Source: Candidatus Doudnabacteria bacterium (GTDB lineage Bacteria; Patescibacteriota; Doudnabacteria; UBA920). From it: a stretch of DNA of 64,000 bases. The notes below the pieces were generated by a model. It was not told where the DNA came from. It searched no databases and saw nothing but the letters and a program-made list of their open reading frames with translations. Made by a program: the position numbers and the translations under genes. Shown one piece after another: positions 5,833-54,144 of this stretch (position 1 is its first letter; each line of letters opens with the position of its first letter). Where the stretch lies: NCBI GenBank assembly GCA_003151625.1, contig PLYC01000013.1:29210-93209 (forward strand), written 5' to 3'.

Positions 5833-7680
5833 TCAAGCCTTTTCAAAGTTAACCCGAAGTGCGTTTAGGATTACGGCTACGTCCAGGAGTTCCTGGAGCA
5901 GGGCGCCATAAATAGGCTGAATGTAGCCGAGCGCGGCAATTATCATTAAGATAATGCTTACGCCAATGCCAATGAGTATGCTTTGTTTGGCAATTCTTAT
6001 GGTCCTTTTGGCAATTTTTAAGGCCATGCCGACGCGGGAGAGGTCGTCTTTGGTAATTACGATATCGGCGGATTCCGATGACGCGGTACTGCCGTGCCCG
6101 CCAATGGCGATGCTGACATCGGCCACGGCCAGAGCCGGCGCGTCGTTGACCCCATCCCCTACCATACAGACCGAACCGAATTCTTTTTTATGCTCTCGCA
6201 CTTCGTTGACCTTATCTGCCGGCAAACATTCTGCGTGGATGTCCGTAAGTCCCAATTGCCCGGCAATAATATCGGCCACATTTTTTTTGTCCCCCGTAAG
6301 CATAACTATTTTATCCAACCCCATTGTCTTCATTTCCGCAAACAGAGTTTTTATTTCCGGCCTGACGACATCGGAAAAAATTATCGCGCCAAGCAGCAGG
6401 TTTCCACTTCCCAAATAGACGGCAATTTTTCCCTGTTTTTGGATTTCTCCATGCTCGAAAATCCTCTGTTCGTTAAACACAACTCCCTGGTTTTGTAAAA
6501 AAGCAAGTTTGCCGAAAATATATTTTTGGCCGTTAATTTTACCCATAACTCCGTCGCCAAAAGTTTCTTCAAAATCCGTTGGGTATTCCAGCTTGACGTT
6601 TTTTTTGCCGGCTAAAATTCGCAGGGAGCGGGCTAAAATATGGGCGGAAAGTTGGTCTAAAGAAGCGGCCAATTCAAGGATTTTATCGTTTTTAAAAGCG
6701 GATTCAAAAGCTTTAACCTCGGACACCTCCGGGGTTCCAAGAGTTAATGTGCCGGTTTTATCAAAAATAAATGCCCTAACTTCGGCCAGCTTTTCCAGAG
6801 CGCCGCCGCTTTTAACAATAATTCCGCGGCTGGCCGAACGGCTGACACCGGACATAATAGCAATGGGCGTGGCCAGTATTAATGGGCACGGAGTAGCTAC
6901 AACCAAAACGGCTAAAAGACGGATTGGGTCATGAGCCAATTGCCAGGCGGCCGCGGCTAAAAGAAACGTTACGGCCGTAAACCAGACACTGTAGCGGTCG
7001 GCTAAGCGTACCACTGGCGCGCGGCTTTCACTGGCCTGCTTAACCAATTGGATGATTTTTTCGTAAGTGCTTTCTTTGCTGGTCCTTATGGCTTTTATTT
7101 CCAGAGCGCCGTCTTGGCTTACGCTGCCGCTGTAAATTTGCCTGCCCGGCCGTTTTTGTGAAGGGAGAGGCTCGCCGGTAATTGCCGATTCATCCACATT
7201 ACCGGTGCCCAATACCACAAGTCCGTCGGCCGGCACAACCTCGCCGGGTTTTACCACAAAAACATCTCCAGGCTTAAGTTCTGACGCCGGGATATCTTTT
7301 AAATTACCGCTGGTTTTTAAATGTGCCAGGCTTGGCAAATGAGAAAGCAACGCCGTTAATTCGCGGCGTGCCCTTTGTAGCGCGTAAATTTCGAGCCCCT
7401 CGCCCCCGGACAACATTAATAAAATTACCGCTCCGGCCAAATATTGTTTCAAAAAAAATGACGCCAGAATTGCCGTAATAGCAATTACATCAACGCCATA
7501 GTGCCCGGCAAATATATCTTTAAACATCCGATAGAACAGAGGTATGGTGCCTAAAATTAGAATAACTTTTAGCGTGGTTTCGGCAAAAATCAAAAATCCT
7601 GCTAAGTAAAAAATTAAAGATAAAAGTAGCCCAGTCAACACGGAAAATGGAATTAAATAATGCTGGGATTTATCGTTCAT
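5833..7680 (-). CDS. heavy-metal translocating P1B-type ATPase
   Basis: DKTGTLT phosphorylation motif, TPCPL (CPx) in a TM helix, GDGVNDAPAL; no N-terminal metal-binding domain. Confidence 0.9.
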   Translation of the reverse strand: MNDKSQHYLIPFSVLTGLLLSLIFYLAGFLIFAETTLKVILILGTIPLFYRMFKDIFAGHYGVDVIAITAILASFFLKQYLAGAVILLMLSGGEGLEIYALQRARRELTALLSHLPSLAHLKTSGNLKDIPASELKPGDVFVVKPGEVVPADGLVVLGTGNVDESAITGEPLPSQKRPGRQIYSGSVSQDGALEIKAIRTSKESTYEKIIQLVKQASESRAPVVRLADRYSVWFTAVTFLLAAAAWQLAHDPIRLLAVLVVATPCPLILATPIAIMSGVSRSASRGIIVKSGGALEKLAEVRAFIFDKTGTLTLGTPEVSEVKAFESAFKNDKILELAASLDQLSAHILARSLRILAGKKNVKLEYPTDFEETFGDGVMGKINGQKYIFGKLAFLQNQGVVFNEQRIFEHGEIQKQGKIAVYLGSGNLLLGAIIFSDVVRPEIKTLFAEMKTMGLDKIVMLTGDKKNVADIIAGQLGLTDIHAECLPADKVNEVREHKKEFGSVCMVGDGVNDAPALAVADVSIAIGGHGSTASSESADIVITKDDLSRVGMALKIAKRTIRIAKQSILIGIGVSIILMIIAALGYIQPIYGALLQELLDVAVILNALRVNFEKA

Positions 7681-16133: not shown

Positions 16134-16250
16134 TTATTAGCGACGTAGAGCGAGTGAAAGTTATCCGCCTAAGACGAATAACTTTCCGAGCCGAGAAGCT
16201 AATACAGGTTCAATACCTCGGAGTTCTGCTCCGAGGAACCTTTATTTTTT
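16134..16250 (+). ncRNA. structured ~110-nt element, copy 1 (candidate sRNA with intrinsic terminator)
   Basis: Conserved 5' TTATTAGCGACGTAGAGCGAGTG; variable internal hairpin; conserved CGAGCCGAG.AGCTAATACAGGTTCAATACCTCGGAG..CTCCGAGGAACCTTTATTTTTT; stop codon of minus-strand TfoX lies inside the T-run. Confidence 0.4.
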
Positions 16251-16565
16251 AGGTTTTGGTAGCGGCAACGCCGCAACGGTTATAGAAATTAACTCCGCTA
16301 AAAATTGGCGGTCGTCAAACAAGTCCCCGCTTATGTACATGGAAGCTTTGGCCCCTTTGTAGGCAAAGCCCTCTTTATATTTTTTACCCACGAATTTTTT
16401 TCCAGGTCCTGTAATTTTTACAAACAGCTCGTCGTCGCAAACCAAACCCACAACCTTGCCCTGGCAATATAAAGCGTACTCGCCAAACATTTTTCTGGCG
16501 CTGACATTTGTCACTTCCGATAATTGGTCCAGCAGGTAATCTATTGTGGATTGTTTTGTTGCCAT
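16242..16565 (-). CDS. TfoX N-terminal domain protein
   Basis: RKMFGEYALYCQGKVVGLVCDDELFVKI matches the TfoX/Sxy N-domain. Confidence 0.6.
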   Translation of the reverse strand: MATKQSTIDYLLDQLSEVTNVSARKMFGEYALYCQGKVVGLVCDDELFVKITGPGKKFVGKKYKEGFAYKGAKASMYISGDLFDDRQFLAELISITVAALPLPKPKK

Positions 16566-28821: not shown

Positions 28822-29145
28822 AAAATTAATGACTATTAATCTTTTTCACCGATCTATAAATCATCAAAATACTACCCAGGAAAACTAAACCAAAAAATAT
28901 TTTTTGCAAATGGGTTTGGCAACAATAAATAGGGCAAACGAGAGGACGGTGAGGGGGAAATATAACTAAGGTAAGGGCAGAAATTTTTTTATGCCTTGGG
29001 GAGCCCCATCTCTGCGGACGAGGCAGGATATTTTCCGGCCAAAGGCAAATTACCTTGGAGGTAGCCGCTGGCGTTGGTGATAGGAATTTCCTGGCCTTTT
29101 AGGAAATCTTTGGTATATTGTTCGCCGTTTTCGGACATAAAGATC

Positions 29146-29451
29146 TTATTTTTCCAGATCTTCCGTTAAAATTCCCAAACTTCTTGCGGGCTTAGGCTCC
29201 TCCTTGGCCTGCTCTTTTGGGGCTGGATCAGACTTGGATTTAGGGAGGTCGTCAACATTCACCAAATCCGGTCCCCGGGTTTGCCGATTTTGATCAGCCT
29301 CGGTAAACATCCTTTTGCGGTCGTCCGGACCGATAGGCTTTTCCGTTTCTATCTTCATGGCAGCTTCAAGAGCGGCCCTTGCTTTGGCCGCCCGGGTATC
29401 CCAATGATCAGTTTCTTGATCGAATATACTGGATTGTTCTTTGGTTGGCAT
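29146..29451 (-). CDS. small charged/disordered protein (paralog of 31516-31806)
   Basis: Starts MPT, ends ILTEDLEK; upstream palindrome AAATAGCCTTAATAAGGCTATTT. Confidence 0.45.
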   Translation of the reverse strand: MPTKEQSSIFDQETDHWDTRAAKARAALEAAMKIETEKPIGPDDRKRMFTEADQNRQTRGPDLVNVDDLPKSKSDPAPKEQAKEEPKPARSLGILTEDLEK

Positions 29452-31207: not shown

Positions 31208-31430
31208 AAATCAAAATAAAATAGCCTTAATATAAGGCTATTTTTAACCTTTTTAGGGGTTTTGGCTATCTTGACTTCCGGATTTAGAGGTGCGGTAAAG
31301 AAGCTGGTCAAATAAGGAAGGTGACAAGATAACAATAGCAAAGCCGGAAGGACCTGCGTCCTCCCGGCTTAAATTATGGGTAGGTATAAATATTATTCGC
31401 TGTTTTCGGACATAAAAATTTTATTAGCGA

Positions 31431-31523
31431 CGTAGAGCGAGTGTCCCGCCAAGGCGGGACCGAGCCGAGGAGCTAATACAGGTTCTATACCTCGCAGCTC
31501 TGCTCCGAGGAACCTTTATTTTT
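31431..31523 (+). ncRNA. structured ~110-nt element, copy 2
   Basis: Same conserved 5' and 3' blocks as copy 1 with a different internal hairpin (GTCCCGCC aa GGCGGGAC); terminator CCTCGCAGCTCTGCTCCGAGG plus T-run; minus-gene stop TAA at 31516-31518 lies inside the T-run. Confidence 0.4.
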
Positions 31524-31806
31524 CCGGCTCTTCCGTTAAAACCCCAACACTTTTTTTGGGACGGCTTGAGGGCTTGGGTTGTGGTTCGTCTGCTACTTCC
31601 TTGGGAGCATAAGGATTTTTTCTTTCCGGCTCCCTGCGCGGGTTGCGCATTGCTTCCATTTCGGCTTCTAATTCTCTTCTTTTCTCAGGAGTTAAAGGCT
31701 TGGCGTCTTTTGGTTCGCTACCTGTTTCTGGTATTTGTTTGCGTAAATCTTTAACTCGCCAATCGATGCCTTCTTGTTTACTATCCATTTCACTTAATGT
31801 TGGCAT
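31516..31806 (-). CDS. small charged/disordered protein (paralog of 29146-29451)
   Basis: Starts MPTLSEM, ends VLTEEPEK. Confidence 0.45.
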   Translation of the reverse strand: MPTLSEMDSKQEGIDWRVKDLRKQIPETGSEPKDAKPLTPEKRRELEAEMEAMRNPRREPERKNPYAPKEVADEPQPKPSSRPKKSVGVLTEEPEK

Positions 31807-36169: not shown

Positions 36170-36175
36170 ATTATT

Positions 36176-36282
36176 ATTCGCGACGTAGGCGAGACAAAGT
36201 AATGCCTTAAGGTATTACTTTGCGAGCCGAGGAGCTAAGAAAGGTTCAATACCTCGCGGCTTGCCCCGAGGAACCTTTATTT
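36176..36282 (+). ncRNA. structured ~110-nt element, copy 3
   Basis: Conserved blocks with a third internal hairpin (CAAAGTAATGCC ttaa GGTATTACTTTG); terminator plus T-run; minus-gene stop TAA at 36277-36279 lies inside. Confidence 0.4.
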
Positions 36283-36537
36283 CCATCGTTCCAGATGTGG
36301 AACGCCTTTAACCATCCACCCGGCCAAAAAGCCCGGGAAGCCCATTTCTTTTAATTTTTCTTTACAAAAAGCTTGCATTTGCTGGGCGTTCCAGCCTGGG
36401 TTTTTAAACGCGCCGTTTTGGTAGCAATAAGAGCAATACATTGTGTTCTTTGTGCCGTCCGCGTTGGTTCCTCCGCCGGCAGGGTCTTTTTTCATTGGCA
36501 TCCCGCAACTTTGACAATTTTTGTATGTTTGAGCCAT
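36277..36537 (-). CDS. putative zinc-ribbon domain protein
   Basis: CQSCGMPM...YCSYCYQNG pattern. Confidence 0.6.
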   Translation of the reverse strand: MAQTYKNCQSCGMPMKKDPAGGGTNADGTKNTMYCSYCYQNGAFKNPGWNAQQMQAFCKEKLKEMGFPGFLAGWMVKGVPHLERWK

Positions 36538-40860: not shown

Positions 40861-43800
40861 ATGGCTTCCGATTCAACGTCAATAACAAATGAAGGTCAGA
40901 ACACGCTCTCGGCGGCGTTAAAGGATATTTTGCCAAATTGTGACAGAGTTGACGCGCTCGTCGGGTATTTTTATTTTTCTGGTTTTCGGGATCTGCATAA
41001 AGAACTTCAGAGCAAAAAGATCCGAATTCTCGTAGGTATGGATATAGATAGGAAAATGATAGAAAAGATTTCTACTTTGAAGGATGCCAATCTTGACTCT
41101 TATCTCACGGATTCAAAAATTTCGTCGCGGGCAGGCGTAAAAGAAAATTATTTTGAGATTTTTTCTCGTGTTTTTAACGATACTGATTATTTTGATGATA
41201 CAGAAGCCCAAGAAGCTTTTAAGAGTTTTTTGGAGAAAATCAAAGACGGAAGTTTGGAAATTAAGAAGTCGGCTAAAGCGAATCATTCGAAGTATTATAT
41301 CTTGCACAATAAACCAGAGCTTTCAGCGAATGGCAGAACGCCAGGCGTTATTGTCACAGGTTCGAGCAACCTAACACTATCAGGGCTTAAGGGGCAAGGA
41401 GAAAATAATATAATCTTGCAGGAAAAGCATTACTACGATGACCACTTCAAACGATTTGAGGAACAATGGAATGATCCAGAAAATATCGGGATTGCAGATA
41501 TAAATTCTGCTGATGAATTTATACAAGAAGTAAAACAGAGGGTTTGGCTTTATGCCCTACCGAAACCTCTCCATATGTTTTATAGGGTTCTTGATGAGTA
41601 TTTTTCAGTAGACGATGTGGAAGATAGAAAGTCACCAGAAGAAATTACTTCCGGTAAATTCTATAACTTAAAATATCAACGGGATGCAATAAATTTAGGA
41701 ATTGACAGAATTGAGAAATTCGGAGGAGTTATTATTGCGGATGTTGTAGGCCTAGGTAAAAGCATTGTCGCATCAGCCATTGCTCATAATCTTAATTTGC
41801 AGACAGTTATTATTGCCCCTCCACACCTTGAAAGTCAGTGGAAAGATTATATGTCTGATTTCGACTTCAAGGGTCAGGTGTATTCAACTGGAAAAATTAA
41901 AGAAGCACTTGAGCGACACGGAAGCGAGGGTGGAAAGTTATTGATAATTTTAGATGAAGCTCACAAGCATAGAAACGAAGATACTGATAATTATATTCTG
42001 CTTCATAAACTTTGCGCGGGCAATCGAGTTATGGCTCTTTCCGCTACTCCTTTTAACAATGACCCAAGGGACATTTATGCCCTTATAAAATTGTTCAGCA
42101 CTCCCGGTCAATCCACTTTAAAAACTGTGGAAAATTTAAGTATGTCATTTCATCAGCTTTTCAAAAGTTATCGTGCGTTAAGAAGGAGTATGCGCCAGAG
42201 CGGGAAGAAGCAAGATGAAAGCGGTGTTGAGGAAATAACCAAGCGCAGTCAAGAAATCGCAAATGAATTACGGAAGATGATTGAACCACTGGTCATTCGC
42301 CGTTCAAGGTTGGATTTGGACGAGATTGAGGTTTATAGAAAAGATTTGAAAGAGCAAAATATTTCGTTTCCAAAAGTTAAAGACCCGGAATTACTTGAAT
42401 ATAAACTAGGCGAAATATCTGATCTGTATATAAGTACGTTAGAAAAAATTGCATCTGATGAGGAGCGAGCAAGTTTTCTCGGCACAAGATATAAATCTGC
42501 TAATTATATTCGACCGGGTTCGGATTTCTTTACGAAACTCATTGAGCAGGAAGAAACAACTGATGGCGAGTCACCCCAAGAGACTATTCAAAGAATGCAG
42601 CAGGCGCAAGTTAACATAGCCAAATTTATGCGGCGTCTACTAGTGAGGAGATTTGAAAGTTCCATAGCCTCTTTCAAAATCTCACTAAATAACATGATCA
42701 CCTCGTCCGAGCTTATGTTGGACTGGTATCTAAATCGCGGCGAAGTGCCAATCTATAAAAAAGGAGATCTTCCTGACACTACCGATCTTGAAGATATGGA
42801 GCCATCTGAAGCAGAAGCGGCGCTTAATAAGCTAGAGGGCAAAGGACTTATCCTTATTCCAAAAGCTGAAATTGATCCACGTTTTGAAGAACACCTGCGA
42901 CACGATATAGAGTTACTAAAAGGTATTTTGGCAAATTGGGATGGTGTAACAGCAGACCCAAAGTATGAATTCTTTGTTAAGAAAGTTACAGAATCTCTAG
43001 CGAAAGAAAATAAACGAAAGCTTGTTGTATTTACCGAATTTTCGGATACTGCGGATTATATATATGAAAAATTAAAGGCTGATGGTTTGCAACGAATTTT
43101 TAAATACACCTCGGGCGATGCTTCGGAAGCAAACAGAAAAACAATTAAAGCCAACTTTGACGCAAGTTTAGATTTATCAAAACAATCTAATGATTTTGAT
43201 ATTATAGTAGCAACGGATGCAATTTCTGAAGGGTTTAATTTGCATCGAGCAGGGACGGTTATAAATTATGATATTCCCTATAATCCTACACGAGTAATTC
43301 AGCGTGTCGGGCGCATTAATCGTATTAGTCAAAAAGTATTTGACGAACTTTTCATTTGGAACTTCTTCCCTACTCCGACGGGAGAATTTGAGACACATAC
43401 ACGGGCTATTTCTACATTAAAAATGAATATGATTCATTCGCTCCTTGGTGAAGATACGAGGATATTTACTAGCGACGAGGAGTTGAAAAATTATTTTGCA
43501 AAACAGTATACGGAAGAAAATAAAAAATTTGATGGGTCCTCATGGGATGCAAAATACAGGAATATCTGGCTGAATATAAAAGGCAATAAAAAAGTTATGG
43601 ACGAAATTGCCAAGATACCGCGTCGGTCGAGAATTGCTAGGAAATCATTAAAAAATGGTGTTGTCGCATTCGCAAAGAACGGCGGTAGTTATGTTTTCGC
43701 TTATGGAAACACAGCAGAAGATGTGATGGTTATTTCTCCCGAAATTGCCCTACCATTATTTGAAGCTAGTGAGGTCGACAAAGCAGAGGAAACGACAACC

Positions 43801-44163
43801 AGCTTTGAGCCAATATACCAGGTCGCTAAAGATCATATATTTAAGAATAATACTCACGCTTCTGTTACCGGCGGGCGTAAACAAGATGCGCTAGGTAAAT
43901 TAAAAGTGTTATCTGAAATGTATCAACCTGCAAAAGATTTATGTTTAGATGCTATCAAAACCATAAAAGACTTGGATGCTCTTCCGAACGGTATTCTAAA
44001 AGAAATCGCGGAATTATATTTAGATAAGGCAAACCTTGCCAAATCCTATACTATTCTCAAAGAGATGCTACCGCCAAAGTACCTTGAGGATATTTTTACA
44101 ACAGCGAAAAGAGCCGAGGAAACGGCTCGGCTGATTGTGTTGTCTGAAGAGTTAATTGCATGA
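40861..44163 (+). CDS. PLD-like nuclease domain fused to SNF2-family helicase
   Basis: N-terminal HKD-like motif NHSKYYILHN...VIVTGSSNLTLSG; helicase motifs I GLGKS, II ILDEAHKHRN, III LSATPFNN and VI QRVGRINRISQ; ATGA overlap with the next gene. Confidence 0.8.
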   Translation: MASDSTSITNEGQNTLSAALKDILPNCDRVDALVGYFYFSGFRDLHKELQSKKIRILVGMDIDRKMIEKISTLKDANLDSYLTDSKISSRAGVKENYFEIFSRVFNDTDYFDDTEAQEAFKSFLEKIKDGSLEIKKSAKANHSKYYILHNKPELSANGRTPGVIVTGSSNLTLSGLKGQGENNIILQEKHYYDDHFKRFEEQWNDPENIGIADINSADEFIQEVKQRVWLYALPKPLHMFYRVLDEYFSVDDVEDRKSPEEITSGKFYNLKYQRDAINLGIDRIEKFGGVIIADVVGLGKSIVASAIAHNLNLQTVIIAPPHLESQWKDYMSDFDFKGQVYSTGKIKEALERHGSEGGKLLIILDEAHKHRNEDTDNYILLHKLCAGNRVMALSATPFNNDPRDIYALIKLFSTPGQSTLKTVENLSMSFHQLFKSYRALRRSMRQSGKKQDESGVEEITKRSQEIANELRKMIEPLVIRRSRLDLDEIEVYRKDLKEQNISFPKVKDPELLEYKLGEISDLYISTLEKIASDEERASFLGTRYKSANYIRPGSDFFTKLIEQEETTDGESPQETIQRMQQAQVNIAKFMRRLLVRRFESSIASFKISLNNMITSSELMLDWYLNRGEVPIYKKGDLPDTTDLEDMEPSEAEAALNKLEGKGLILIPKAEIDPRFEEHLRHDIELLKGILANWDGVTADPKYEFFVKKVTESLAKENKRKLVVFTEFSDTADYIYEKLKADGLQRIFKYTSGDASEANRKTIKANFDASLDLSKQSNDFDIIVATDAISEGFNLHRAGTVINYDIPYNPTRVIQRVGRINRISQKVFDELFIWNFFPTPTGEFETHTRAISTLKMNMIHSLLGEDTRIFTSDEELKNYFAKQYTEENKKFDGSSWDAKYRNIWLNIKGNKKVMDEIAKIPRRSRIARKSLKNGVVAFAKNGGSYVFAYGNTAEDVMVISPEIALPLFEASEVDKAEETTTSFEPIYQVAKDHIFKNNTHASVTGGRKQDALGKLKVLSEMYQPAKDLCLDAIKTIKDLDALPNGILKEIAELYLDKANLAKSYTILKEMLPPKYLEDIFTTAKRAEETARLIVLSEELIA

Positions 44164-47100
44164 TGAAATTTAATGAAAAATATAACCATGAGAGCTTCCT
44201 TGATTTTTTGAACAATTTTCTCCCTGAAGATTTTTTAGAAAAAGAAGAAGACATTGTTATAAACAAAGAAAGATATAAGGAAATAGCCAAAGCTAAAATA
44301 TTGGGTTTTTCAGAGTGTTTAGATTTATATGTTTTAGAAATGGATCACTCCCGGGAAAATGATCCCAGAATTGCTATTGCAACGGACGCTTTTAAAATAC
44401 TTGCTGACCATTGGATACACAGAGCCCTTGTAGTATTTAAAAATAAAGAATCAGAGAATTATAGACTTTCCTATTTAACCATTTCTCTCGATTTAAATGA
44501 TAAAAATAAAGCTGTAAAAAGATACTCAAATGCTCGTAGATACTCTTTTTATCTTGGCCCTAATGCTAAAATAAACACCCCGACGAAGTTTCTTATTAGC
44601 AAAGGTAAAGTTACTGACTTTGACGATCTGAAAAGTAGATTTTCTATTGAGGTTGTTAATAAAGAATTTTACAAAGAAATATCCCAAGCATTTACTAAAC
44701 TTATTGATGGATTACTTAAGCTCCCTTCGAATGAAGATAAAAATCAGACTAGCATAGAATTTGCGGTTCGTTTAATTGGCAGGATCATCTTTTGCTGGTT
44801 CTTACGCGAAAAAAAAAGCCAAACTGGGTCAGCTTTGATGCCGAAAGAACTATTGTCTCTGTCTGCTGTCCAGGAAAACAGCGACTATTATCACAGGATT
44901 CTTGAACCTATTTTTTTTGAAGTTCTCAATAAGCCTGTTAAATCCAGAATAGATGGTTTTGCCAAGGAGCCTTTTTCCTATGTGCCTTATTTGAATGGTG
45001 GTTTATTTTCACCTCAAGATAACGATTATTACAAACGCATTAATAGCGCTTTTCAATCGCAATATCAAAATAATTTAGTAATTCCTGACGATTGGCTTAA
45101 AGACTTTTTTGAAATCCTTGAGACTTATAATTTCACAATAGACGAAAATACTAGCTTTGATGAAGAACTTTCCATCGATCCGGAGATGCTTGGAAGAATT
45201 TTTGAAAACCTTCTTGCAGAAATAAACCCGGAAACAGGAGAATCTGCGCGTCAAAGTACGGGTAGTTTCTATACACCGAGGACAATTGTAGATTATATGA
45301 TTGACGAAAGTTTGATGCTGTACCTAAAAAATCTAACACAGATTGAAGATAAAAAGCTAAAAGCTATTGTAAGTTATGATTTGAATGATGATGCGGCTAA
45401 TCCACTCAATCTTGATGAGAAGCAAAAAATTGTTGATGCCCTCGAGAGAGTAAAGATACTTGATCCAGCTTGTGGTTCGGGAGCTTTTCCCATAGGTGCT
45501 CTTCAAAAAATAGTTTTCATTCTCCAGCAGGTAGATCCTGATGGGCAAATGTGGTTTACAAAACAAATTCAGAATACATCCCCAGAAATAAAAAGGGTAA
45601 TAGAGCGCGAATTTGCTCATAAGAATTTTGATTATATTAGAAAACTTGGAATTATAAGAGAAAATATCTACGGTATTGATATTCAGTCAATCGCTATAGA
45701 GATATCTCGGCTAAGATGTTTTTTAACCTTAGTTGTCGACGAACGTATACAGGAGGACTTAGATAATAGAGGAATTGAGCCTTTACCAAATTTGGATTTT
45801 AAGTTTGTGGTCTCTAATACTCTTTTTGGTCTTCCAGGATCAGAGTCCTTAAGTCAATCTGAACTGTTCGAAGATGATGCTGGAATACAAGAATTAAAAG
45901 GGCTTAGGGACTTGTTCTTTAATGCTTCTGGGGTTGAACGAGATCAATTACAGCTTAAATTTGTCCAAGCTCAAAATAGAATGTTTCAACGTCTTATTAG
46001 TGAAGGCAGGAGGGGTTTGGGTCAATTAACCACTCAATTAACCACATGGGATCCATTTAGTCACAATCTTTCATCGTGGTTTGATTCTGAATGGATGTTC
46101 GGGATAAAGGACGGCTTTGATATTGTGATTGCTAACCCACCCTACGTATCGACAAAAGGAGTTGAAGAAAATTCAAAAGAACAACTTGAAAATAAATATG
46201 GTTTTGCAGATGACCTGTATTCCCATTTTTATTTTAGAGGTTTTGAACTATGCAAAGGCGGAGGCTTTCTTTCTTATATAACTAGTAAGACCTTCTGGGT
46301 CATTCAAACAAAAAAGAACCTTCGTGAATTATTGCTTAAAAATAATATTATTGATATTTATGATACCGCTAATCCGTTTGAAAGTGTGATGGTAGATACT
46401 TGTGTAGTTCTGGCTCAGAAAGAGAATAGGCAGGAAAATAAAATTAACTTCTTGAAAGCAGATAATGATTATTCGAATCCGATTCGGCTGGAAGTAGATA
46501 AGTCAATTTATGAAAATGCTGTAAATACAGTTATTTTTAGTCCGTCTCATGAAAATCTTGTGATATATCATAAATACAATACTGCAGTGAGTGAACTGAT
46601 GAAAAAATGGTGGCCATTAATCAATACGAGTAAAAATATTACAAAATATGGCACACAGCTAACAAAATACAGAGATAATTTAAAATCAGGAGAGGTTACA
46701 CTTTTAGGGTTAATTACAGATGGTGGACAAGGTCTCGCAACTGCAAACAATGGTAAATATGTTGGCGTGCTTTCCAGCACAAAGGAAGCAGTAAAAATAG
46801 AGGAAGCACGTATTAAGAAGTTTTTTGAATTTGTTACTCAGCGAACAATTAGTGAATATGGAACTAGTAAAGAATCTATTCGGGCAAATTTAAATAAATT
46901 ATCAGAGCAACAACTTCGGGCACTTTTTGATACATTGAAAGATAAATATGGGCAAGATCTTTTCGGAAAAGGATTCCTGTACCGCATCGTTGATTCTAGA
47001 GAGATAAAGAATATAGATAAAATGACTGACAATGAAAAAGAAGACGGCCTAGTTGGTGATCAATCATTTGTACCGTATGATAAAGGAGACAAGGAAGGCA

Positions 47101-47666
47101 ATCGATGGTATGTCCGTACGCCATATTATATTGATTGGAATAAGGTTAATGTAAGTTTTTTAAAAGAAAATACTGGTAAGAAAGGTAAAAATATGCCTGT
47201 TTTTCGAAATCCACAATTTTATTTTAAGGATGGATTCTCGTGGAATCTTATTAACGGGACCAGAACGACTAATGAACTTAAATTTACAATTACGGCACCT
47301 GCCGTAAATGATATGGCCTCGAATAAATTAACTTCCTTACTAGATAATGTATCTAACAAATACATCGCCACTGTTTGTAATTCTAGGTTTATAAACACAT
47401 ACACCGAAAATTTTATAAATTTTACATTAAATTTTCCTCATAATAGCACTCGTCAGGTACCCATAATTATTCCTACTGAAAAACAACTTGTCGACTTTGA
47501 AGATCTGTTTGACCGTGCCTATGCTATAAAAGTTAACCAGTTCGACGGAAAAATTACCGAGACTGCCGCAGGTCTAAAACTTCAAGAAATCCAAGAAGAA
47601 TTAGATGAAAAAGTGTTAAAACTTTATGGCCTCACGTCCGAGGAGGTAGAGATTGTAAAAAATTAA
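44160..47666 (+). CDS. N6-adenine DNA methyltransferase, Eco57I/PglX-like (1168 aa)
   Basis: Motif I LDPACGSGAF; motif IV IANPPYVS; large N- and C-terminal extensions. Confidence 0.8.
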   Translation: MMKFNEKYNHESFLDFLNNFLPEDFLEKEEDIVINKERYKEIAKAKILGFSECLDLYVLEMDHSRENDPRIAIATDAFKILADHWIHRALVVFKNKESENYRLSYLTISLDLNDKNKAVKRYSNARRYSFYLGPNAKINTPTKFLISKGKVTDFDDLKSRFSIEVVNKEFYKEISQAFTKLIDGLLKLPSNEDKNQTSIEFAVRLIGRIIFCWFLREKKSQTGSALMPKELLSLSAVQENSDYYHRILEPIFFEVLNKPVKSRIDGFAKEPFSYVPYLNGGLFSPQDNDYYKRINSAFQSQYQNNLVIPDDWLKDFFEILETYNFTIDENTSFDEELSIDPEMLGRIFENLLAEINPETGESARQSTGSFYTPRTIVDYMIDESLMLYLKNLTQIEDKKLKAIVSYDLNDDAANPLNLDEKQKIVDALERVKILDPACGSGAFPIGALQKIVFILQQVDPDGQMWFTKQIQNTSPEIKRVIEREFAHKNFDYIRKLGIIRENIYGIDIQSIAIEISRLRCFLTLVVDERIQEDLDNRGIEPLPNLDFKFVVSNTLFGLPGSESLSQSELFEDDAGIQELKGLRDLFFNASGVERDQLQLKFVQAQNRMFQRLISEGRRGLGQLTTQLTTWDPFSHNLSSWFDSEWMFGIKDGFDIVIANPPYVSTKGVEENSKEQLENKYGFADDLYSHFYFRGFELCKGGGFLSYITSKTFWVIQTKKNLRELLLKNNIIDIYDTANPFESVMVDTCVVLAQKENRQENKINFLKADNDYSNPIRLEVDKSIYENAVNTVIFSPSHENLVIYHKYNTAVSELMKKWWPLINTSKNITKYGTQLTKYRDNLKSGEVTLLGLITDGGQGLATANNGKYVGVLSSTKEAVKIEEARIKKFFEFVTQRTISEYGTSKESIRANLNKLSEQQLRALFDTLKDKYGQDLFGKGFLYRIVDSREIKNIDKMTDNEKEDGLVGDQSFVPYDKGDKEGNRWYVRTPYYIDWNKVNVSFLKENTGKKGKNMPVFRNPQFYFKDGFSWNLINGTRTTNELKFTITAPAVNDMASNKLTSLLDNVSNKYIATVCNSRFINTYTENFINFTLNFPHNSTRQVPIIIPTEKQLVDFEDLFDRAYAIKVNQFDGKITETAAGLKLQEIQEELDEKVLKLYGLTSEEVEIVKN

Positions 47667-48968
47667 ATGACCCAAGGATACGTACTTAAAATCCCATTCG
47701 GCAGGCGTGCTATTTTTGCAGATAATATCGACGGTCAATTCGCTCAGCCCGTTCCAAGTTTTTCCCATGGCCGTGGCTCACCACTTGTGGTTTTTATCTC
47801 TGCAGAAGAAGGATGTATCACTCATTTAGCAACGGGGCGTCCGGGCGTAAACGCGGGGACTGATCTACGAAGATTAAACTTAGAAGAAATTCATGTCCCA
47901 CAAACACCTTTACGATTTGCAGATATCTTAGAATATGTTCCTGCCAACGTACGGCGACATATTGCTAGTGTATTTGAACGCGGTGGAGTCTTACCGCCAG
48001 GAAGCTTTACTGGAGTAGTGGGCGCTATTCACGAACTAGACCCAAATATTAGTCCATTACTAACGCGATATGGGGTAGGGCGTGCAGAGGCAATTGCAAA
48101 TTTACCTTTACGTGCTCGTGAGTCGTTAGCCGCACAAAAAGAAGCCGTGAATACGGCTCTGGGTTTAGCTAACTTTGATCGGAAGCCTCTACTTGAGTGG
48201 ACTCCTAGTCCAACCGAGCAACGCACTTCATTTCTTGATGGATTGCCACAAGCATACTTACGAGAAGATCTCATGATTTTAAATGACCTGAATCATATTC
48301 CTGGGTTAAACCATATTAGGTCTTCAATTACCAGCACTGCACGTTTTGAGGGGCAAGGTGTAAGGTTGGATGTTATTTTGGCGAACCGCATGCGCCTAGA
48401 AGAACAAACAGGTGCAGACCTTATTTATTATAATGCAACATATCAGTCATTTGTTATGGTTCAATATAAGGCCATGGAGCAGGTTGAGAACGAGCATGGT
48501 CCCTCGTTTAGGCTTCCTAATTCTCAGCTGAACGCTGAAATTTTTCAAATGGATCGATTGATTGAGCAATTGAGGCCAGCCTCGCCCCCGTCTAACCGTG
48601 ATGAGTATCGTTTTACTGAAAACCCTTTTTTTATAAAGTTGTGCCCTAGAATTATATTAGATCCAGATAATGTTGATCTAACACCAGGTATGTATTTCTC
48701 GCGAGATCATTGGCGCTTTCTTGAGGTTGATACTGATTTAGTTGGTCCTCGTGGTGGTCACAAAATTACCTATCAAAATATGCGGAGGTACCTCAATAAC
48801 ACACAGTTTGCTGACCTCGTGCAAAATGCTTGGGTTGGAACGACACCCGCGCAGAGCTCCATGCTGGAGGCAATCATCTCAGAAATCCTTCAAGAGGGAA
48901 AAGCAGTAATTATTGCCATAAAATCAAAAATCGAAATACAACTCACAGAAACAGAAGATAATTTATAA
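47667..48968 (+). CDS. hypothetical protein (433 aa), third gene of operon
   Basis: Start ATG directly follows the methyltransferase TAA; possible D...QxK segment GADLIYYN...FVMVQYK; no confident family. Confidence 0.5.
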   Translation: MTQGYVLKIPFGRRAIFADNIDGQFAQPVPSFSHGRGSPLVVFISAEEGCITHLATGRPGVNAGTDLRRLNLEEIHVPQTPLRFADILEYVPANVRRHIASVFERGGVLPPGSFTGVVGAIHELDPNISPLLTRYGVGRAEAIANLPLRARESLAAQKEAVNTALGLANFDRKPLLEWTPSPTEQRTSFLDGLPQAYLREDLMILNDLNHIPGLNHIRSSITSTARFEGQGVRLDVILANRMRLEEQTGADLIYYNATYQSFVMVQYKAMEQVENEHGPSFRLPNSQLNAEIFQMDRLIEQLRPASPPSNRDEYRFTENPFFIKLCPRIILDPDNVDLTPGMYFSRDHWRFLEVDTDLVGPRGGHKITYQNMRRYLNNTQFADLVQNAWVGTTPAQSSMLEAIISEILQEGKAVIIAIKSKIEIQLTETEDNL

Positions 48969-53450: not shown

Positions 53451-53476
53451 AAAAAACCACCTTACGGTGGTTTTTT
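53451..53476 (+). terminator. rho-independent terminator
   Basis: AAAAAACCACC ttac GGTGGTTTTTT. Confidence 0.65.
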
Positions 53477-53540
53477 CATAAAAAATTAAAACAAAACCTT
53501 TTTTGCTTCTTAGGGCTTCCCATTGTAACTCTGGGTTTTT

Positions 53541-53661
53541 GCCCGTCAAGGGTAAAACCTCTTTATCTGCCGTAAGCCATAAATCGGTTTTAATCCCGTT
53601 GACCGCCAAAACATTCCAGAGTTTTTTTGCTTGCCATAATAAGTAAGCAAAAAGGAGTTTT
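53541..53661 (+). promoter_or_regulatory. conserved ~120-bp leader (copy 1) upstream of RadC-like gene
   Basis: Shares GTCAAGGGTAAAACC...GGTTTTAATCCCGTTGAC.GCC...CCATAATAA.TAAGCAAA.AAAGGAG with 56121-56242. Confidence 0.45.
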
Positions 53662-54144
53662 ATGGAATATCAAGTAAATATTAGCTACCAGTTTAAAGCT
53701 GATAGCGACAACGAAGCTAACGAAAAAGCCAAAAGCTATATTAGCCAGAATTTGCAGGTTAAAGCTATTAAGGACGGCGTTTACAGCCCTTTGGAAATAG
53801 CCTCAAAGTGCAAGAATTTCAGGAAAGCTAAAAAAGAACACTTTTGCGTCTTTTTCCTGGATACCCAAAACAGGATTCTTGGCAAAGAAACCGTCAGCAT
53901 TGGCACATTAAACACAAGCCTGATTCATCCCAGGGAGTGTTTTAGGACTGCTATATTAAAAAATTCTGCTTCTGTAATTTTCGTCCACAATCATCCAAGC
54001 GGGGGTTTAGAGCCGTCAGCGGAAGATCTTAATGTTACCAAGCGGTTAAAAGATGCCGGGAAACTCCTTGGCATAGAAGTTTTAGACCACGTGATTGTAA
54101 CAACTGATTCTCACACCAGTTTGAAGGAACGACATTTATTATAA
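53662..54144 (+). CDS. RadC-like JAB domain protein (short form)
   Basis: HNHPSGGLEPSAEDLNVTKRL; paralog of the C-terminal half of 33717-34381. Confidence 0.8.
   Translation: MEYQVNISYQFKADSDNEANEKAKSYISQNLQVKAIKDGVYSPLEIASKCKNFRKAKKEHFCVFFLDTQNRILGKETVSIGTLNTSLIHPRECFRTAILKNSASVIFVHNHPSGGLEPSAEDLNVTKRLKDAGKLLGIEVLDHVIVTTDSHTSLKERHLL

What the first reader, a model, noticed from the sequence alone, without database searches (positions are those of the whole stretch)
16134..16250. Three copies of a ~110-bp structured element, each with a variable compensatory hairpin and an intrinsic terminator whose T-run contains the stop codon of the abutting minus-strand gene
Copies at 16134-16250, 31431-31523 and 36176-36282 share conserved ends (TTATT.GCGACGTAG.GCGAG and CGAGCCGAGGAGCTAA.A.AGGTTC.ATACCTCG...CCGAGGAACCTTTATTT). 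Each has a completely different internal perfect hairpin, which points to conservation of structure. On the plus strand each ends as a canonical terminator. In all three the TAA of the upstream minus-strand gene (TfoX, a small disordered protein, a Zn-ribbon protein) sits in the same register inside AACCTTTATTT, and each of those genes ends in Lys. This fits a family of cis-antisense sRNAs at gene 3' ends, or a mobile 3'-end element that donates a terminator and stop codon. Integron attC-like sites were considered, but the RYYYAAC/GTTRRRY cores are absent.
Basis: seen in the sequence. Interest (0 to 1): 0.65.

Follow-up and report, generated by a model that had tools for sequence, protein, structure and literature searches.

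The report
Miniature structured mobile element of Patescibacteria
The three repeats are copies of a small, gene-less mobile DNA element, widespread in the ultra-small Patescibacteria and not matched in any library or paper searched here, that folds into hairpins and slips in next to the four bases TTAT, so that it can land exactly on a gene's stop codon and rebuild it.

Summary
The window has exactly three copies, about 95-108 nt each, with conserved ends, unrelated compensatory hairpins, and a neighbouring gene's TAA in one fixed register.

The antisense-sRNA reading is not supported. The "mobile element" reading is. Two empty-versus-filled site comparisons show clean 95-nt and 80-nt insertions. 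More than 160 further copies occur in Patescibacteria genomes and metagenomes, in both orientations relative to neighbouring genes. Some are truncated and some sit in head-to-tail tandems. None has a linked gene.

Comparative data define the layout as YTAY | P1 – GACGTAG(N)GCGAG – variable hairpin P2 – CGAGCCGAGGA – P1' – linker – P3 … YTAY |. P1, P2 and P3 all covary. The last flank base covaries with the first linker base (T–A or C–G), which implies that base pairing selects the target.

The best fit is a non-autonomous, single-strand "peel-and-paste" element of the IS200/IS605 or REP kind. It has no inverted ends. It inserts 3' of a tetranucleotide. A GTAG precedes an imperfect palindrome. 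The enzyme was not found, so membership of that family is unproven.

The complement of TTAT is ATAA. The element's own end therefore restores the last codon base and the stop codon. In 17 of 79 copies the element end coincides with a converging gene's stop.

The parts
16134..16137 (+). Copy 1: target tetranucleotide TTAT directly 5' of the element
   Evidence: Sequence. The 4-mer at this position is YTAY in 151 of 163 copies. It pairs with the linker.
16138..16245 (+). Copy 1, whole element (108 nt), running from TAGC... to ...CCTTTAT
   Evidence: The limits are set by analogy with the two empty-site comparisons.
16138..16141 (+). Copy 1: P1 5' strand (TAGC), which pairs with 16198-16201
   Evidence: Fold. 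Covariation of P1.
16142..16154 (+). Copy 1: conserved 5' loop strand GACGTAGAGCGAG. It contains GTAG followed by GCGAG, and GCGAG pairs with CGAGC through tandem G-A mismatches.
   Evidence: (near-invariant even in the scan whose pattern did not fix it).
16155..16186 (+). Copy 1: variable hairpin P2
   Evidence: There are 149 different P2 sequences among about 163 copies, with a median of 12 bp. Covariation.
16187..16197 (+). Copy 1: conserved 3' loop strand CGAGCCGAGAA (consensus CGAGCCGAGGA)
16198..16205 (+). Copy 1: P1 3' strand GCTA plus linker ATAC. The linker is the proposed guide, complementary to the TTAT at both ends.
   Evidence: Flank(-1)/linker(+1) is T-A in 134 copies, C-G in 22 and other in 7. 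Formal pair count.
16206..16241 (+). Copy 1: P3 domain. The outer stem AGGTTC/GAACCT encloses AATA and the hairpin 16216-16236.
   Evidence: The outer stem is kept while its insert varies from 0 to 3 hairpins. Each copy's own complement is found downstream in 49 of 152 copies, against 2.4 in controls.
16242..16245 (+). Copy 1: terminal TTAT of the element. Positions 16242-16244 are the TAA stop of the TfoX_N gene 16242-16565 (-).
31421..31424 (+). Copy 2: target TTAT
31425..31519 (+). Copy 2, whole element (95 nt). Positions 31516-31518 are the stop codon of gene 31516-31806 (-).
   Evidence: It appears as a 95-nt gap against the paralogous locus.
36174..36177 (+). Copy 3: target TTAT
36178..36280 (+). 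Copy 3, whole element (103 nt). It belongs to a subfamily with GTAG-GCGAG (no spacer base) and the linker AGAA. Positions 36277-36279 are the stop codon of the Zn_ribbon_2 gene 36277-36537 (-).
   Evidence: The same subfamily appears in L024, L039 and L081.
29146..29149 (+). Unoccupied target TTAT. It overlaps the stop codon of gene 29146-29451 (-), the paralogue of the copy-2 locus.
53563..53566 (+). Unoccupied target TTAT. The orthologous stretch in metagenome contig L071 carries an 80-nt member of the family at this site.

Best explanation
The three repeats are copies of a non-autonomous mobile DNA element of Patescibacteria, usually 90-160 nt long and without a gene. The mechanism I propose has four steps.

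1. One strand (the window's + strand, the "top" strand) folds as single-stranded DNA. P1 closes a long irregular hairpin. Its two near-invariant purine-rich strands, GACGTAG(N)GCGAG and CGAGCCGAGGA, flank a freely varying stem P2. A second stem, P3, closes the 3' half.

2. A trans-acting single-strand nuclease/transferase cuts 3' of a YTAY tetranucleotide at two places: in the left flank and at the element's own right end. The enzyme is most likely a Y1 HUH enzyme of the IS200/IS605 TnpA or RayT kind.

3. Both cut sites are chosen by base pairing with the short linker that follows P1'. This mirrors how IS608 reads its cleavage sites with internal guide sequences.

4. The excised strand re-inserts 3' of another YTAY.

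On the other strand YTAY reads RTAR, which contains TAA or TAG. The element's right end carries its own copy. Insertion just before the A-TAA of a converging gene therefore rebuilds the last codon base and the stop. That makes stop codons, and the T-tails of terminators, harmless landing sites in these tightly packed genomes.

What is shown: insertion, target motif, structure, covariation and distribution. What is inferred: the single-stranded DNA intermediate and the HUH enzyme.
For: Insertion. Window paralogue A (29146-29451) differs from B (31516-31806) by a clean 95-nt gap bounded by TTAT. Window 53470-53650 differs from L071 by an 80-nt gap bounded by TAT, within flanks that are 89% identical.

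Repeat-family behaviour. Forty-nine loci were found in about 30 Patescibacteria genomes, with up to 8 in one MAG. At least 120 metagenome loci were found. There are head-to-tail tandems that share one YTAY (L030, L064, L080), 3'-truncated copies (L022, L040) and decayed copies (L052). Neighbours are housekeeping genes, and no gene family is linked.

No inverted ends.

Target. The 4-mer 5' of the element is YTAY in 151 of 163 copies.

Guide logic. Flank(-1) against linker(+1) is T-A 134, C-G 22, other 7. In the formal count the pair is UA 44, CG 14, UG 2, other 2. The helix covariation score is 0.410 against 0.184±0.015 in shuffles (0 of 500 reach it) and at most 0.123 in slid controls. The element's last base switches with the same subfamilies.

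Structure. P1 plus P2 are 94.6% paired against 79.9% in shuffles. Sixteen pairs change on both sides, and no shuffle reaches any of the five measures. P3 keeps complementarity around inserts of 0-3 hairpins.

Strand. In P1, G-T/T-G number 44 against about 5 A-C/C-A. The top strand lies on the G-rich strand of its locus in 59 of 96 loci (p=0.03), the direction expected for lagging-template targeting.

Hairpin loops show no GNRA or UNCG excess.

Resemblance to known systems. IS608 has no inverted ends, inserts 3' of TTAC, is top-strand specific, and reads its cleavage sites by pairing with guide sequences (PMC3201880). REPs are 20-50-nt palindromes preceded by GTAG, those of E. coli with two conserved stem mismatches that are needed for activity (PMC8266576). 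Here GTAG precedes a palindrome with two conserved G-A mismatches.

Y1 HUH proteins of the RayT kind exist in Patescibacteria.
Against: No transposase was tied to the element. No Y1 gene lies next to any of about 165 copies. No autonomous copy with a gene between the ends was found.

The one Y1 family seen in Patescibacteria is flanked by a different palindrome, and its eight loci hold no copy of the element.

The geometry differs from IS608. The proposed guide lies 3' of the left hairpin rather than 5' of it. One linker appears to serve both ends. The left and right hairpins are unlike each other, and most copies have only one hairpin of the right-end type.

A 3-5-nt target duplication cannot be told apart from "target plus an identical element end".

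Orientation relative to neighbouring genes shows no bias. All three window copies lie on the C-rich strand.

Wobble asymmetry is weak in P2 (15 against 10; 40 against 23).
Confidence: 0.55

Rival explanations
1. A family of small RNA genes transcribed from the + strand. P1-P2 would be a protein-binding domain and P3 plus the U-run a terminator. The RNA would act in trans, or as an antisense RNA on the abutting gene. Mobility would be secondary.
For: The + strand folds well (z = -3.4 to -5.3). P1, P2 and P3 covary. Wobble pairs favour the + strand in P1. The conserved loops are purine-rich with tandem G-A, as in many RNA motifs. Copy 1 ends in a terminator-like site. A copy keeps its place next to relA/spoT in seven contigs.
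Against: No promoter is conserved, and conservation begins at the TTTATT that is itself part of P1. Many copies sit directly behind another gene's terminator. The element takes either orientation. Truncated and tandem copies occur. Insertion polymorphism is seen. Loops are not GNRA or UNCG. Copies 2 and 3 fail the terminator scan. Rfam has no match. In the window, nothing upstream would transcribe the + strand.
Confidence: 0.15
2. An RNA-mediated mobile element. It would be intron-like or retro-mobile, with the linker pairing to the flank as an exon-binding or internal guide sequence does, and it would spread by reverse splicing or reverse transcription.
For: The flank pairs with an internal sequence, and the two covary. 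Insertion is often just behind terminator T-runs, a habit known from my own knowledge of bacterial class C group II introns. Wobble pairs are tolerated.
Against: At 80-160 nt the element is far below any known self-splicing intron. Rfam finds no group I or II signature. No reverse transcriptase is linked. The element's own 3' end, rather than the 3' flank, carries the second copy of the paired motif. Copies lie outside genes or exactly at stop codons, so splicing is not needed.
Confidence: 0.07
3. A folded single-strand recombination site for a tyrosine recombinase, working like an integron attC site or the CTX phage attP. P1 would be the R box, the conserved loops the spacer and L box, and P2 the variable terminal structure.
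For: The topology is the same as a folded attC: a stem, an unpaired spacer, a second stem with unpaired bases, and a variable tip. One strand is favoured. Stop codons lie inside the site, as happens with many cassettes (my own knowledge).
Against: The RYYYAAC/GTTRRRY cores are absent. The conservation pattern is inverted, with loops invariant and the R-like stem covarying. There are no cassette arrays; copies are solitary and kilobases apart. The insertion limits lie at the outer YTAY, not inside P1'. The window ORFs scanned against Pfam gave no integrase hit, but not all ORFs were scanned.
Confidence: 0.07
4. An ordinary miniature inverted-repeat element moved by a DDE transposase, with a short duplication of an AT-rich target.
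For: It is short and gene-less, has many copies, and is flanked by a 3-5-nt direct repeat.
Against: There are no terminal inverted repeats. The target is sequence-specific and covaries with an internal base. The apparent repeat length differs between subfamilies, 5 nt against 3-4 nt. One strand is favoured.
Confidence: 0.05

Closest known systems
IS200/IS605-family insertion sequences and their gene-less derivatives (palindrome-associated transposable elements); reference case IS608
   Same: There are no terminal inverted repeats, and the two ends are unlike each other, each with a subterminal hairpin. Insertion is directly 3' of a T-rich tetranucleotide (YTAY here, TTAC for IS608). The element's right end finishes with a tetranucleotide that is also cut. 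The flank motif is read by base pairing with an internal sequence and covaries with it. One strand is favoured. Head-to-tail tandems occur (PMC3201880).
   Different: No TnpA was found with the element or near it. The proposed guide lies 3' of the left hairpin, and a single linker is complementary to both cut sites. The left and right hairpins are unrelated. The best-conserved parts are two purine-rich strands of an internal loop rather than the hairpin itself. The left-end and right-end tetranucleotides are the same.
REP / BIME / REPIN elements mobilised by RayT (TnpA-REP)
   Same: A conserved GTAG lies 0-1 nt before an imperfect palindrome of about 40 nt. The palindrome carries two conserved mismatches near its foot. 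Copies are dispersed and intergenic, often at gene 3' ends, and no gene is carried. RayT-like Y1 proteins exist in Patescibacteria.
   Different: The element is a larger composite, with P1 and P3 around the REP-like core. Its copy number per genome looks low, with three in this 64-kb window. It does not form inverted doublets. Its ends are YTAY, not the CT cut by the E. coli enzyme. The palindromes flanking the Patescibacteria RayT-like genes seen here are different.
Integron attC sites
   Same: A folded single strand with two stems, an unpaired spacer and a variable tip. It can contain the stop codon of the adjacent gene.
   Different: The core sequences are absent, there are no arrays and no integrase hit among the ORFs scanned, and the insertion limits lie elsewhere.
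Intrinsic terminators and terminator-like repeats at gene 3' ends
   Same: The 3' domain is a G+C-rich hairpin followed by a T-rich tail.
   Different: The similarity between copies extends about 70 nt upstream of the hairpin, with covarying helices and invariant loops. The T-run has a fixed interrupted sequence. Two of the three window copies fail a terminator scan. In the window the hairpin faces against the flow of transcription.

Membership tests
IS200/IS605 family (non-autonomous derivative) | No terminal inverted repeats; asymmetric ends with subterminal hairpins | tested here: met
   The ends TAGCGACG… and …GGAACCTTTAT are unrelated. The P1/P2 hairpin lies at the left and the P3 hairpin(s) at the right.
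IS200/IS605 family (non-autonomous derivative) | Insertion 3' of a specific tetra- or pentanucleotide, without target duplication | tested here: inconclusive
   YTAY lies 5' of 151 of 163 copies. The two empty sites each hold one TTAT. Because the element ends in the same motif, a 3-5-nt duplication cannot be excluded.
IS200/IS605 family (non-autonomous derivative) | Cleavage and target sites recognised by pairing with an internal guide sequence | tested here: met
   Flank(-1)/linker(+1) covary, with T-A 134 and C-G 22. The position of the guide differs from IS608, where it lies 5' of the hairpin foot.
IS200/IS605 family (non-autonomous derivative) | Strand-specific: top strand active and biased to the lagging-strand template | tested here: inconclusive
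   P1 wobble pairs number 44 against 5. GC-skew sign is 59 against 37, p=0.03. There is no bias relative to neighbouring genes, and the window copies lie on the C-rich strand.
IS200/IS605 family (non-autonomous derivative) | Mobilised by a Y1 HUH transposase TnpA, with an autonomous relative that has the same ends | tested here: not met
   No TnpA motif was found in 1.1 Mb of loci. No copy carries cargo between its ends. No gene family is linked. Absence from 8-kb loci is weak evidence, because whole genomes could not be searched.
REP / RayT system | A palindrome of 20-50 nt preceded by a conserved GTAG | tested here: met
   GTAG, then 0-1 nt, then GCGAG-P2-CGAGC (about 40 nt) with tandem G-A mismatches (definition).
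REP / RayT system | A cognate RayT gene flanked by its own REPs (a REPtron) | tested here: not met
   RayT-like genes in L134 and L182-L189 are flanked by a different palindrome, CAAGGGnnnCCCTTG, and lack the element.
REP / RayT system | High copy number, often as inverted doublets | tested here: not met
   There are three solitary copies in 64 kb. Tandems are head-to-tail, not inverted.
Integron attC | R''/R' core sites RYYYAAC … GTTRRRY | tested here: not met
   These are absent from the consensus.
Integron attC | Arrays of cassettes next to an integrase gene | tested here: not met
   Copies are solitary at 16, 31 and 36 kb. The window ORFs scanned against Pfam gave no integrase hit; not all ORFs were scanned.
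Known RNA families (Rfam 15) | A match to a curated covariance model | tested here: not met
   Only a tRNA reaches the gathering score. The best sub-threshold hits score 9-12 bits at E of 2-6.
Cis-antisense sRNA / independent sRNA gene | Its own promoter and a fixed orientation relative to the target gene | tested here: not met
   Transcription itself cannot be tested with these tools.

The most novel reading that the evidence does not exclude
The element may be the substrate of machinery not yet described. Its near-invariant 13-nt and 11-nt purine-rich strands are far better conserved than anything an IS200/IS605 TnpA is known to need. They could be the recognition or catalytic core for a Patescibacteria-specific enzyme. 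One candidate is the roughly 230-aa Y1 HUH protein that sits at a fixed place inside the chromosomal type IV secretion cluster of these bacteria, a cluster reported to lack a relaxase. On this reading the dispersed copies would be guide-programmed nick/transfer sites as well as mobile DNA. The 4-nt linker would be a naturally reprogrammable target selector.
Probability: 0.15. Interest if true: 0.85.

Novelty: new variant of a known kind. Interest (0 to 1): 0.6.

Why it matters
Patescibacteria are a large share of bacterial diversity. They have tiny, tightly packed genomes, and I found no description of their repeated elements.

A phylum-wide, gene-less element with a base-paired target selector has four consequences:
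- It explains conserved structured intergenic blocks that annotation pipelines and RNA-motif screens would otherwise flag as new RNAs.
- It shows how a selfish element survives in a genome with almost no spare DNA. It lands on the stop codon and rebuilds it, so the gene is unharmed.
- It offers a natural series of guide/target variants (TTAT, TTAC, CTAC, CTAT) with which to test programmable single-strand DNA insertion.
- It points to an unidentified enzyme, possibly connected to the unexplained HUH gene in the Patescibacteria secretion cluster.

Tried and rejected
- Rfam, at gathering scores over the whole window and at E-value thresholds on copy 1, gave only a tRNA and noise.
- The phage collection (near and distant modes) and the plasmid collection (distant mode) gave no match.
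- In viral contigs, the 16-mer gave 12 chance hits inside coding sequence. The 24-nt pattern gave none.
- A full-text search for six sequence strings found no paper. Searches on Patescibacteria with non-coding RNA, repeats, MITE, RAYT or REPIN found nothing relevant.
- An exact-protein look-up of the TfoX gene found nothing on record.
- The orthologous engB locus in L015 has different neighbours, so it cannot serve as an empty site.
- A search for a linked gene clustered 2,259 ORFs from 168 loci. It found only housekeeping families.
- Motif searches for IS200-type TnpA found none. A RayT-type motif found one gene (L134), 6.8 kb from the element and with its own, different palindromes.
- Eight contexts of RayT-like genes held no copy of the element. 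The window has no homologue.
- A search for copies with cargo between the left and right ends found none.
- tRNA-like, K-turn, group II domain V and 8-17 DNAzyme resemblances were considered by eye. I dropped them because the topology does not fit and no tool supports them.
- MAFFT misaligned the paralogue pair, so I redid the alignment with an affine-gap aligner.

Full report
THE OBSERVATION

The window carries three + strand copies of one element. They share TTATT(A/C)GCGACGTAG(A)GCGAG on the left. On the right they share CGAGCCGAG(G/A)AGCTAA.A.AGGTTC.ATACCTCG…CCGAGGAACCTTTATTT. Between these blocks lies a hairpin of unrelated sequence in each copy.

A covariance model built only from copies found elsewhere recovers exactly these three when run over the whole window with filters off. 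They score 65-69 bits at E about 1e-20, and the next hit scores 15 bits.

In each copy the TAA of the abutting minus-strand gene lies in the same register of the terminal TTTATT. The genes are TfoX_N, a low-complexity protein and Zn_ribbon_2, and each TAA is preceded by AAA.

The "canonical terminator" description is only partly true. A simple scan accepts copy 1 but not copies 2 and 3.

WHERE THE WINDOW COMES FROM

The window is 42% G+C. It has a long run of small minus-strand housekeeping genes. Two stretches of it are 75-76% identical at the DNA level to locus L036, from a Candidatus Doudnabacteria MAG. The window is a Patescibacteria (CPR) chromosome, not a phage.

THE FAMILY

A scan of one genome per species with a 24-nt pattern gave 49 loci in about 30 genomes. 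Nearly all are Patescibacteria, labelled Doudnabacteria, Saccharibacteria, Kaiser-, Yonath- and Taylorbacteria, Paceibacterota and the Parcubacteria group. Up to eight loci come from one MAG.

A second scan, of metagenomes, was anchored only on the two conserved loop strands. Nothing was found in viral contigs, phages, plasmids, Rfam or the searchable literature.

ANATOMY

Because the second scan did not fix the helices, it shows how they vary. The general layout on the + strand is:

YTAY | NNNC – GACGTAG(N)GCGAG – [1-nt bulge + P2 hairpin] – CGAGCCGAGGA – GNNN – linker – P3 5' strand – 0 to 3 hairpin modules – P3 3' strand – YTAY |

- P1 is the four bases on either side of the loop strands. 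It takes many complementary forms, including TAGC/GCTA, AAGC/GCTT, TGGC/GCCA, TAAC/GTTA, GAGC/GCTC and ACGC/GCGT.
- P2 has 149 different sequences among about 163 copies. Most often it is 12 bp with a 4-nt loop.
- On a gapless 47-sequence alignment, 94.6% of cells pair, against 79.9±0.6% in shuffles. Sixteen of 22 pairs change on both sides. The covariation score is 0.444, against 0.159 in shuffles (0 of 500 reach it) and at most 0.116 when partners are slid.
- P3 keeps its complementarity while its sequence and its insert vary. Each copy's own 10-mer complement is found downstream in 49 of 152 copies, against 2.4 in controls.
- The two loop strands are near-invariant, even in the scan whose pattern did not include the 5' strand. 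GCGAG and CGAGC can pair through two G-A mismatches.

IT IS AN INSERTION

Two natural experiments show this.

1. The window holds a duplicated locus. Gene 29146-29451 and gene 31516-31806 are paralogues with homologous 3' flanks. They differ by a clean 95-nt gap that is exactly copy 2, bounded by TTAT on both sides.

2. Window 53470-53650 is 89% identical to a stretch of metagenome contig L071. L071 carries an 80-nt member of the family at the single TTAT of the window sequence.

Other behaviour is that of a repeat family rather than a gene:
- Head-to-tail tandems share one YTAY (L030, L064, L080).
- There are 3'-truncated copies (L022, L040) and a decayed copy (L052).
- Either orientation occurs relative to neighbours: same/same 32, opposite/opposite 24, convergent 16, divergent 13.
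- Neighbours are housekeeping genes, and no gene family is linked.

HOW THE TARGET IS CHOSEN

The four bases 5' of the element are TTAT (125 copies), TTAC (14), CTAT (7) or CTAC (5). That is YTAY in 151 of 163 copies. The element itself ends in the same kind of tetranucleotide.

The last flank base covaries with the first base of the linker that follows P1'. The pair is T with A in 134 copies, C with G in 22 and something else in 7. In the formal count that pair is UA 44, CG 14, UG 2 and other 2. The eight-pair helix that crosses the insertion boundary has a covariation score of 0.410, against 0.184±0.015 in shuffles (0 of 500 reach it). The element's last base switches with the same subfamilies.

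A flank that is not part of the inserted DNA yet covaries with an internal base means that the insertion site is selected by base pairing. As a weaker remark, YTAY is also the wobble-tolerant complement of the invariant GTAG.

WHICH STRAND, AND DNA OR RNA

In P1, G-T/T-G pairs outnumber A-C/C-A by 44 to about 5, so the + strand is the one that folds. P2 is nearly symmetric: 40 against 23 internal wobbles and 15 against 10.

I favour single-stranded DNA over RNA for four reasons:
- No promoter is conserved, and conservation starts inside P1.
- Many copies sit directly behind another gene's terminator.
- In the window nothing would transcribe the + strand.
- Hairpin loops show no GNRA or UNCG excess.

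The top strand lies on the G-rich strand of its locus in 59 of 96 loci (p=0.03; 43 of 65 when |skew| exceeds 0.03). That is the direction expected if it targets the lagging-strand template. The bias is modest, and the three window copies are exceptions.

MECHANISM PROPOSED

The closest known logic is that of IS200/IS605 elements. IS608 has no inverted ends, is top-strand specific and inserts 3' of TTAC. Its cleavage sites are read not by the protein but by pairing with internal guide sequences. Its right end keeps its own tetranucleotide (PMC3201880).

REP elements are also close. They are 20-50-nt palindromes preceded by GTAG, and those of E. coli carry two conserved stem mismatches that are required for activity. 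They are cut by the Y1 HUH enzyme RayT (PMC8266576). The core here, GTAG followed after 0-1 nt by GCGAG-P2-CGAGC, has that form.

I therefore propose a non-autonomous "peel-and-paste" element. It would be cut 3' of YTAY at the left flank and at its own right end, with the linker guiding both cuts, and moved as a single strand by a trans-acting HUH enzyme.

What is shown is insertion, target motif, structure, guide-target covariation and distribution. The single-strand intermediate and the enzyme class are inferred.

Against membership of the IS200/IS605 family:
- No TnpA or autonomous relative was found.
- The guide lies on the other side of the left hairpin compared with IS608.
- One linker serves both ends.
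- A short target duplication cannot be excluded.

WHY STOP CODONS

On the opposite strand TTAT reads ATAA. Insertion 3' of TTAT is, on the gene's strand, insertion just before A-TAA. The reverse complement of the element's right end begins with its own ATAA. The last codon base and the stop are thus rebuilt, and the original ATAA moves to the far side of the element.

The paralogue without the element ends in the same …GAA AAA TAA, so the protein is unchanged.

This is a property of the family, not a coincidence of this window. Of 79 copies with a confident TTAT or CTAT end, 17 share it with the stop of a converging ORF of at least 60 codons. No other position within ±90 nt collects more than 2. 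The terminal Lys reflects the need for a last codon ending in A within a T/A-rich context. Other copies follow GAA, CAA, GGA, ATA or GTA.

WHAT I COULD NOT SETTLE

The enzyme is not identified. Patescibacteria do carry a family of roughly 230-aa Y1 HUH proteins (Pfam Y1_Tnp), which some sources call RayT. The members I examined are flanked by a different palindrome, and their loci lack the element.

VERDICT

The finding is real and is more than a terminator. The antisense-sRNA reading fails, and the mobile-element reading holds. I class it as a new variant of a known kind: guide-directed, hairpin-dependent elements of the IS200/IS605 or REP type. It is widespread in Patescibacteria and is not matched in any library or paper searched here.

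Noticed in passing
L182 10001-10705, L184 2739-3434 (also L183, L185-L189); L134 3697-4515 (-): A family of roughly 230-aa Y1 HUH proteins (Pfam Y1_Tnp, called RayT by some sources; 187 relatives at E<=1e-5) sits at a fixed place inside the chromosomal type IV secretion cluster of Patescibacteria. It lies just upstream of PrgI, TraC-like, VirB4 and pilin genes, near yidC-rnpA-dnaA. It is preceded by a palindrome CAAGGGnnnCCCTTG. A 2025 preprint (10.1101/2025.01.22.634366) reports that these clusters mostly lack a recognisable relaxase, so this protein is a candidate for that role.
   Followed up: partly
window 53480-53640: This intergenic stretch upstream of ORF 53662-54144 is 89% identical to a contig from another organism (L071) and ends in a T-run. 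Rfam has no match at gathering score. It may be an unannotated leader or small RNA. In L071 it is interrupted by a member of the element family.
   Followed up: partly
window 29085-29451 and 31375-31806: A duplicated locus. Two paralogous low-complexity proteins of about 100 aa end …LTE(D/E)(L/P)EK, and their 3' flanks are homologous (TTTATGTCCGAAAAC.GCGAA.AATAT). Neither protein has a convincing Pfam match.
   Followed up: partly
L134 3590-3700 (- strand): A tandem array of about eight copies of a 16-nt unit, GTGAGTCCTTGATGT…, lies directly after the RayT-like gene. It is followed by two copies of AAATCAAGGGGAGTCCTTGATTT.
   Followed up: no
L064 2057-2330: Three head-to-tail copies of a minimal member of the family, with a period of about 81 nt. 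Each begins right after the ATAT that ends the previous copy.
   Followed up: partly
L067, L076, L078, L095 (next to relA/spoT): Copies of one subfamily (TGCC…GAGGAGAGCTAAAAAAGG) sit next to a RelA/SpoT gene; the RelA/SpoT family lies close to an element in seven contigs. These copies differ by the presence or absence of whole hairpin modules inside P3, bounded by a repeated TTAATACC. The modules therefore seem to be gained or lost as units.
   Followed up: partly
L032 (NZ_JARLJR010000064.1): One copy lies on a contig binned as a Legionella sp. MAG, the only labelled non-Patescibacteria hit. The contig comes from the same study as a Doudnabacteria MAG with eight copies, so a binning error is likely.
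   Followed up: no
L014 6703-7770: Two copies in the same orientation bracket a single 250-aa gene on the opposite strand, ORF 6858-7610. Its stop and start each lie within about 10 nt of an element end. This could be coincidence or a composite unit.
   Followed up: no
window 40861-48968: A + strand block encodes a 1100-aa PLD-nuclease/SNF2-helicase protein, a 1168-aa Eco57I/MmeI-type methyltransferase and a 433-aa protein with no family match. It looks like a restriction or defence island in a low-G+C segment of 36-38%.
   Followed up: no
window 59616-62372 (-): A 918-aa protein carries TrwB/TraD-type coupling-protein and HerA/FtsK ATPase domains, which suggests part of the Patescibacteria type IV secretion locus. 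The window has no homologue of the Y1 HUH gene.
   Followed up: no
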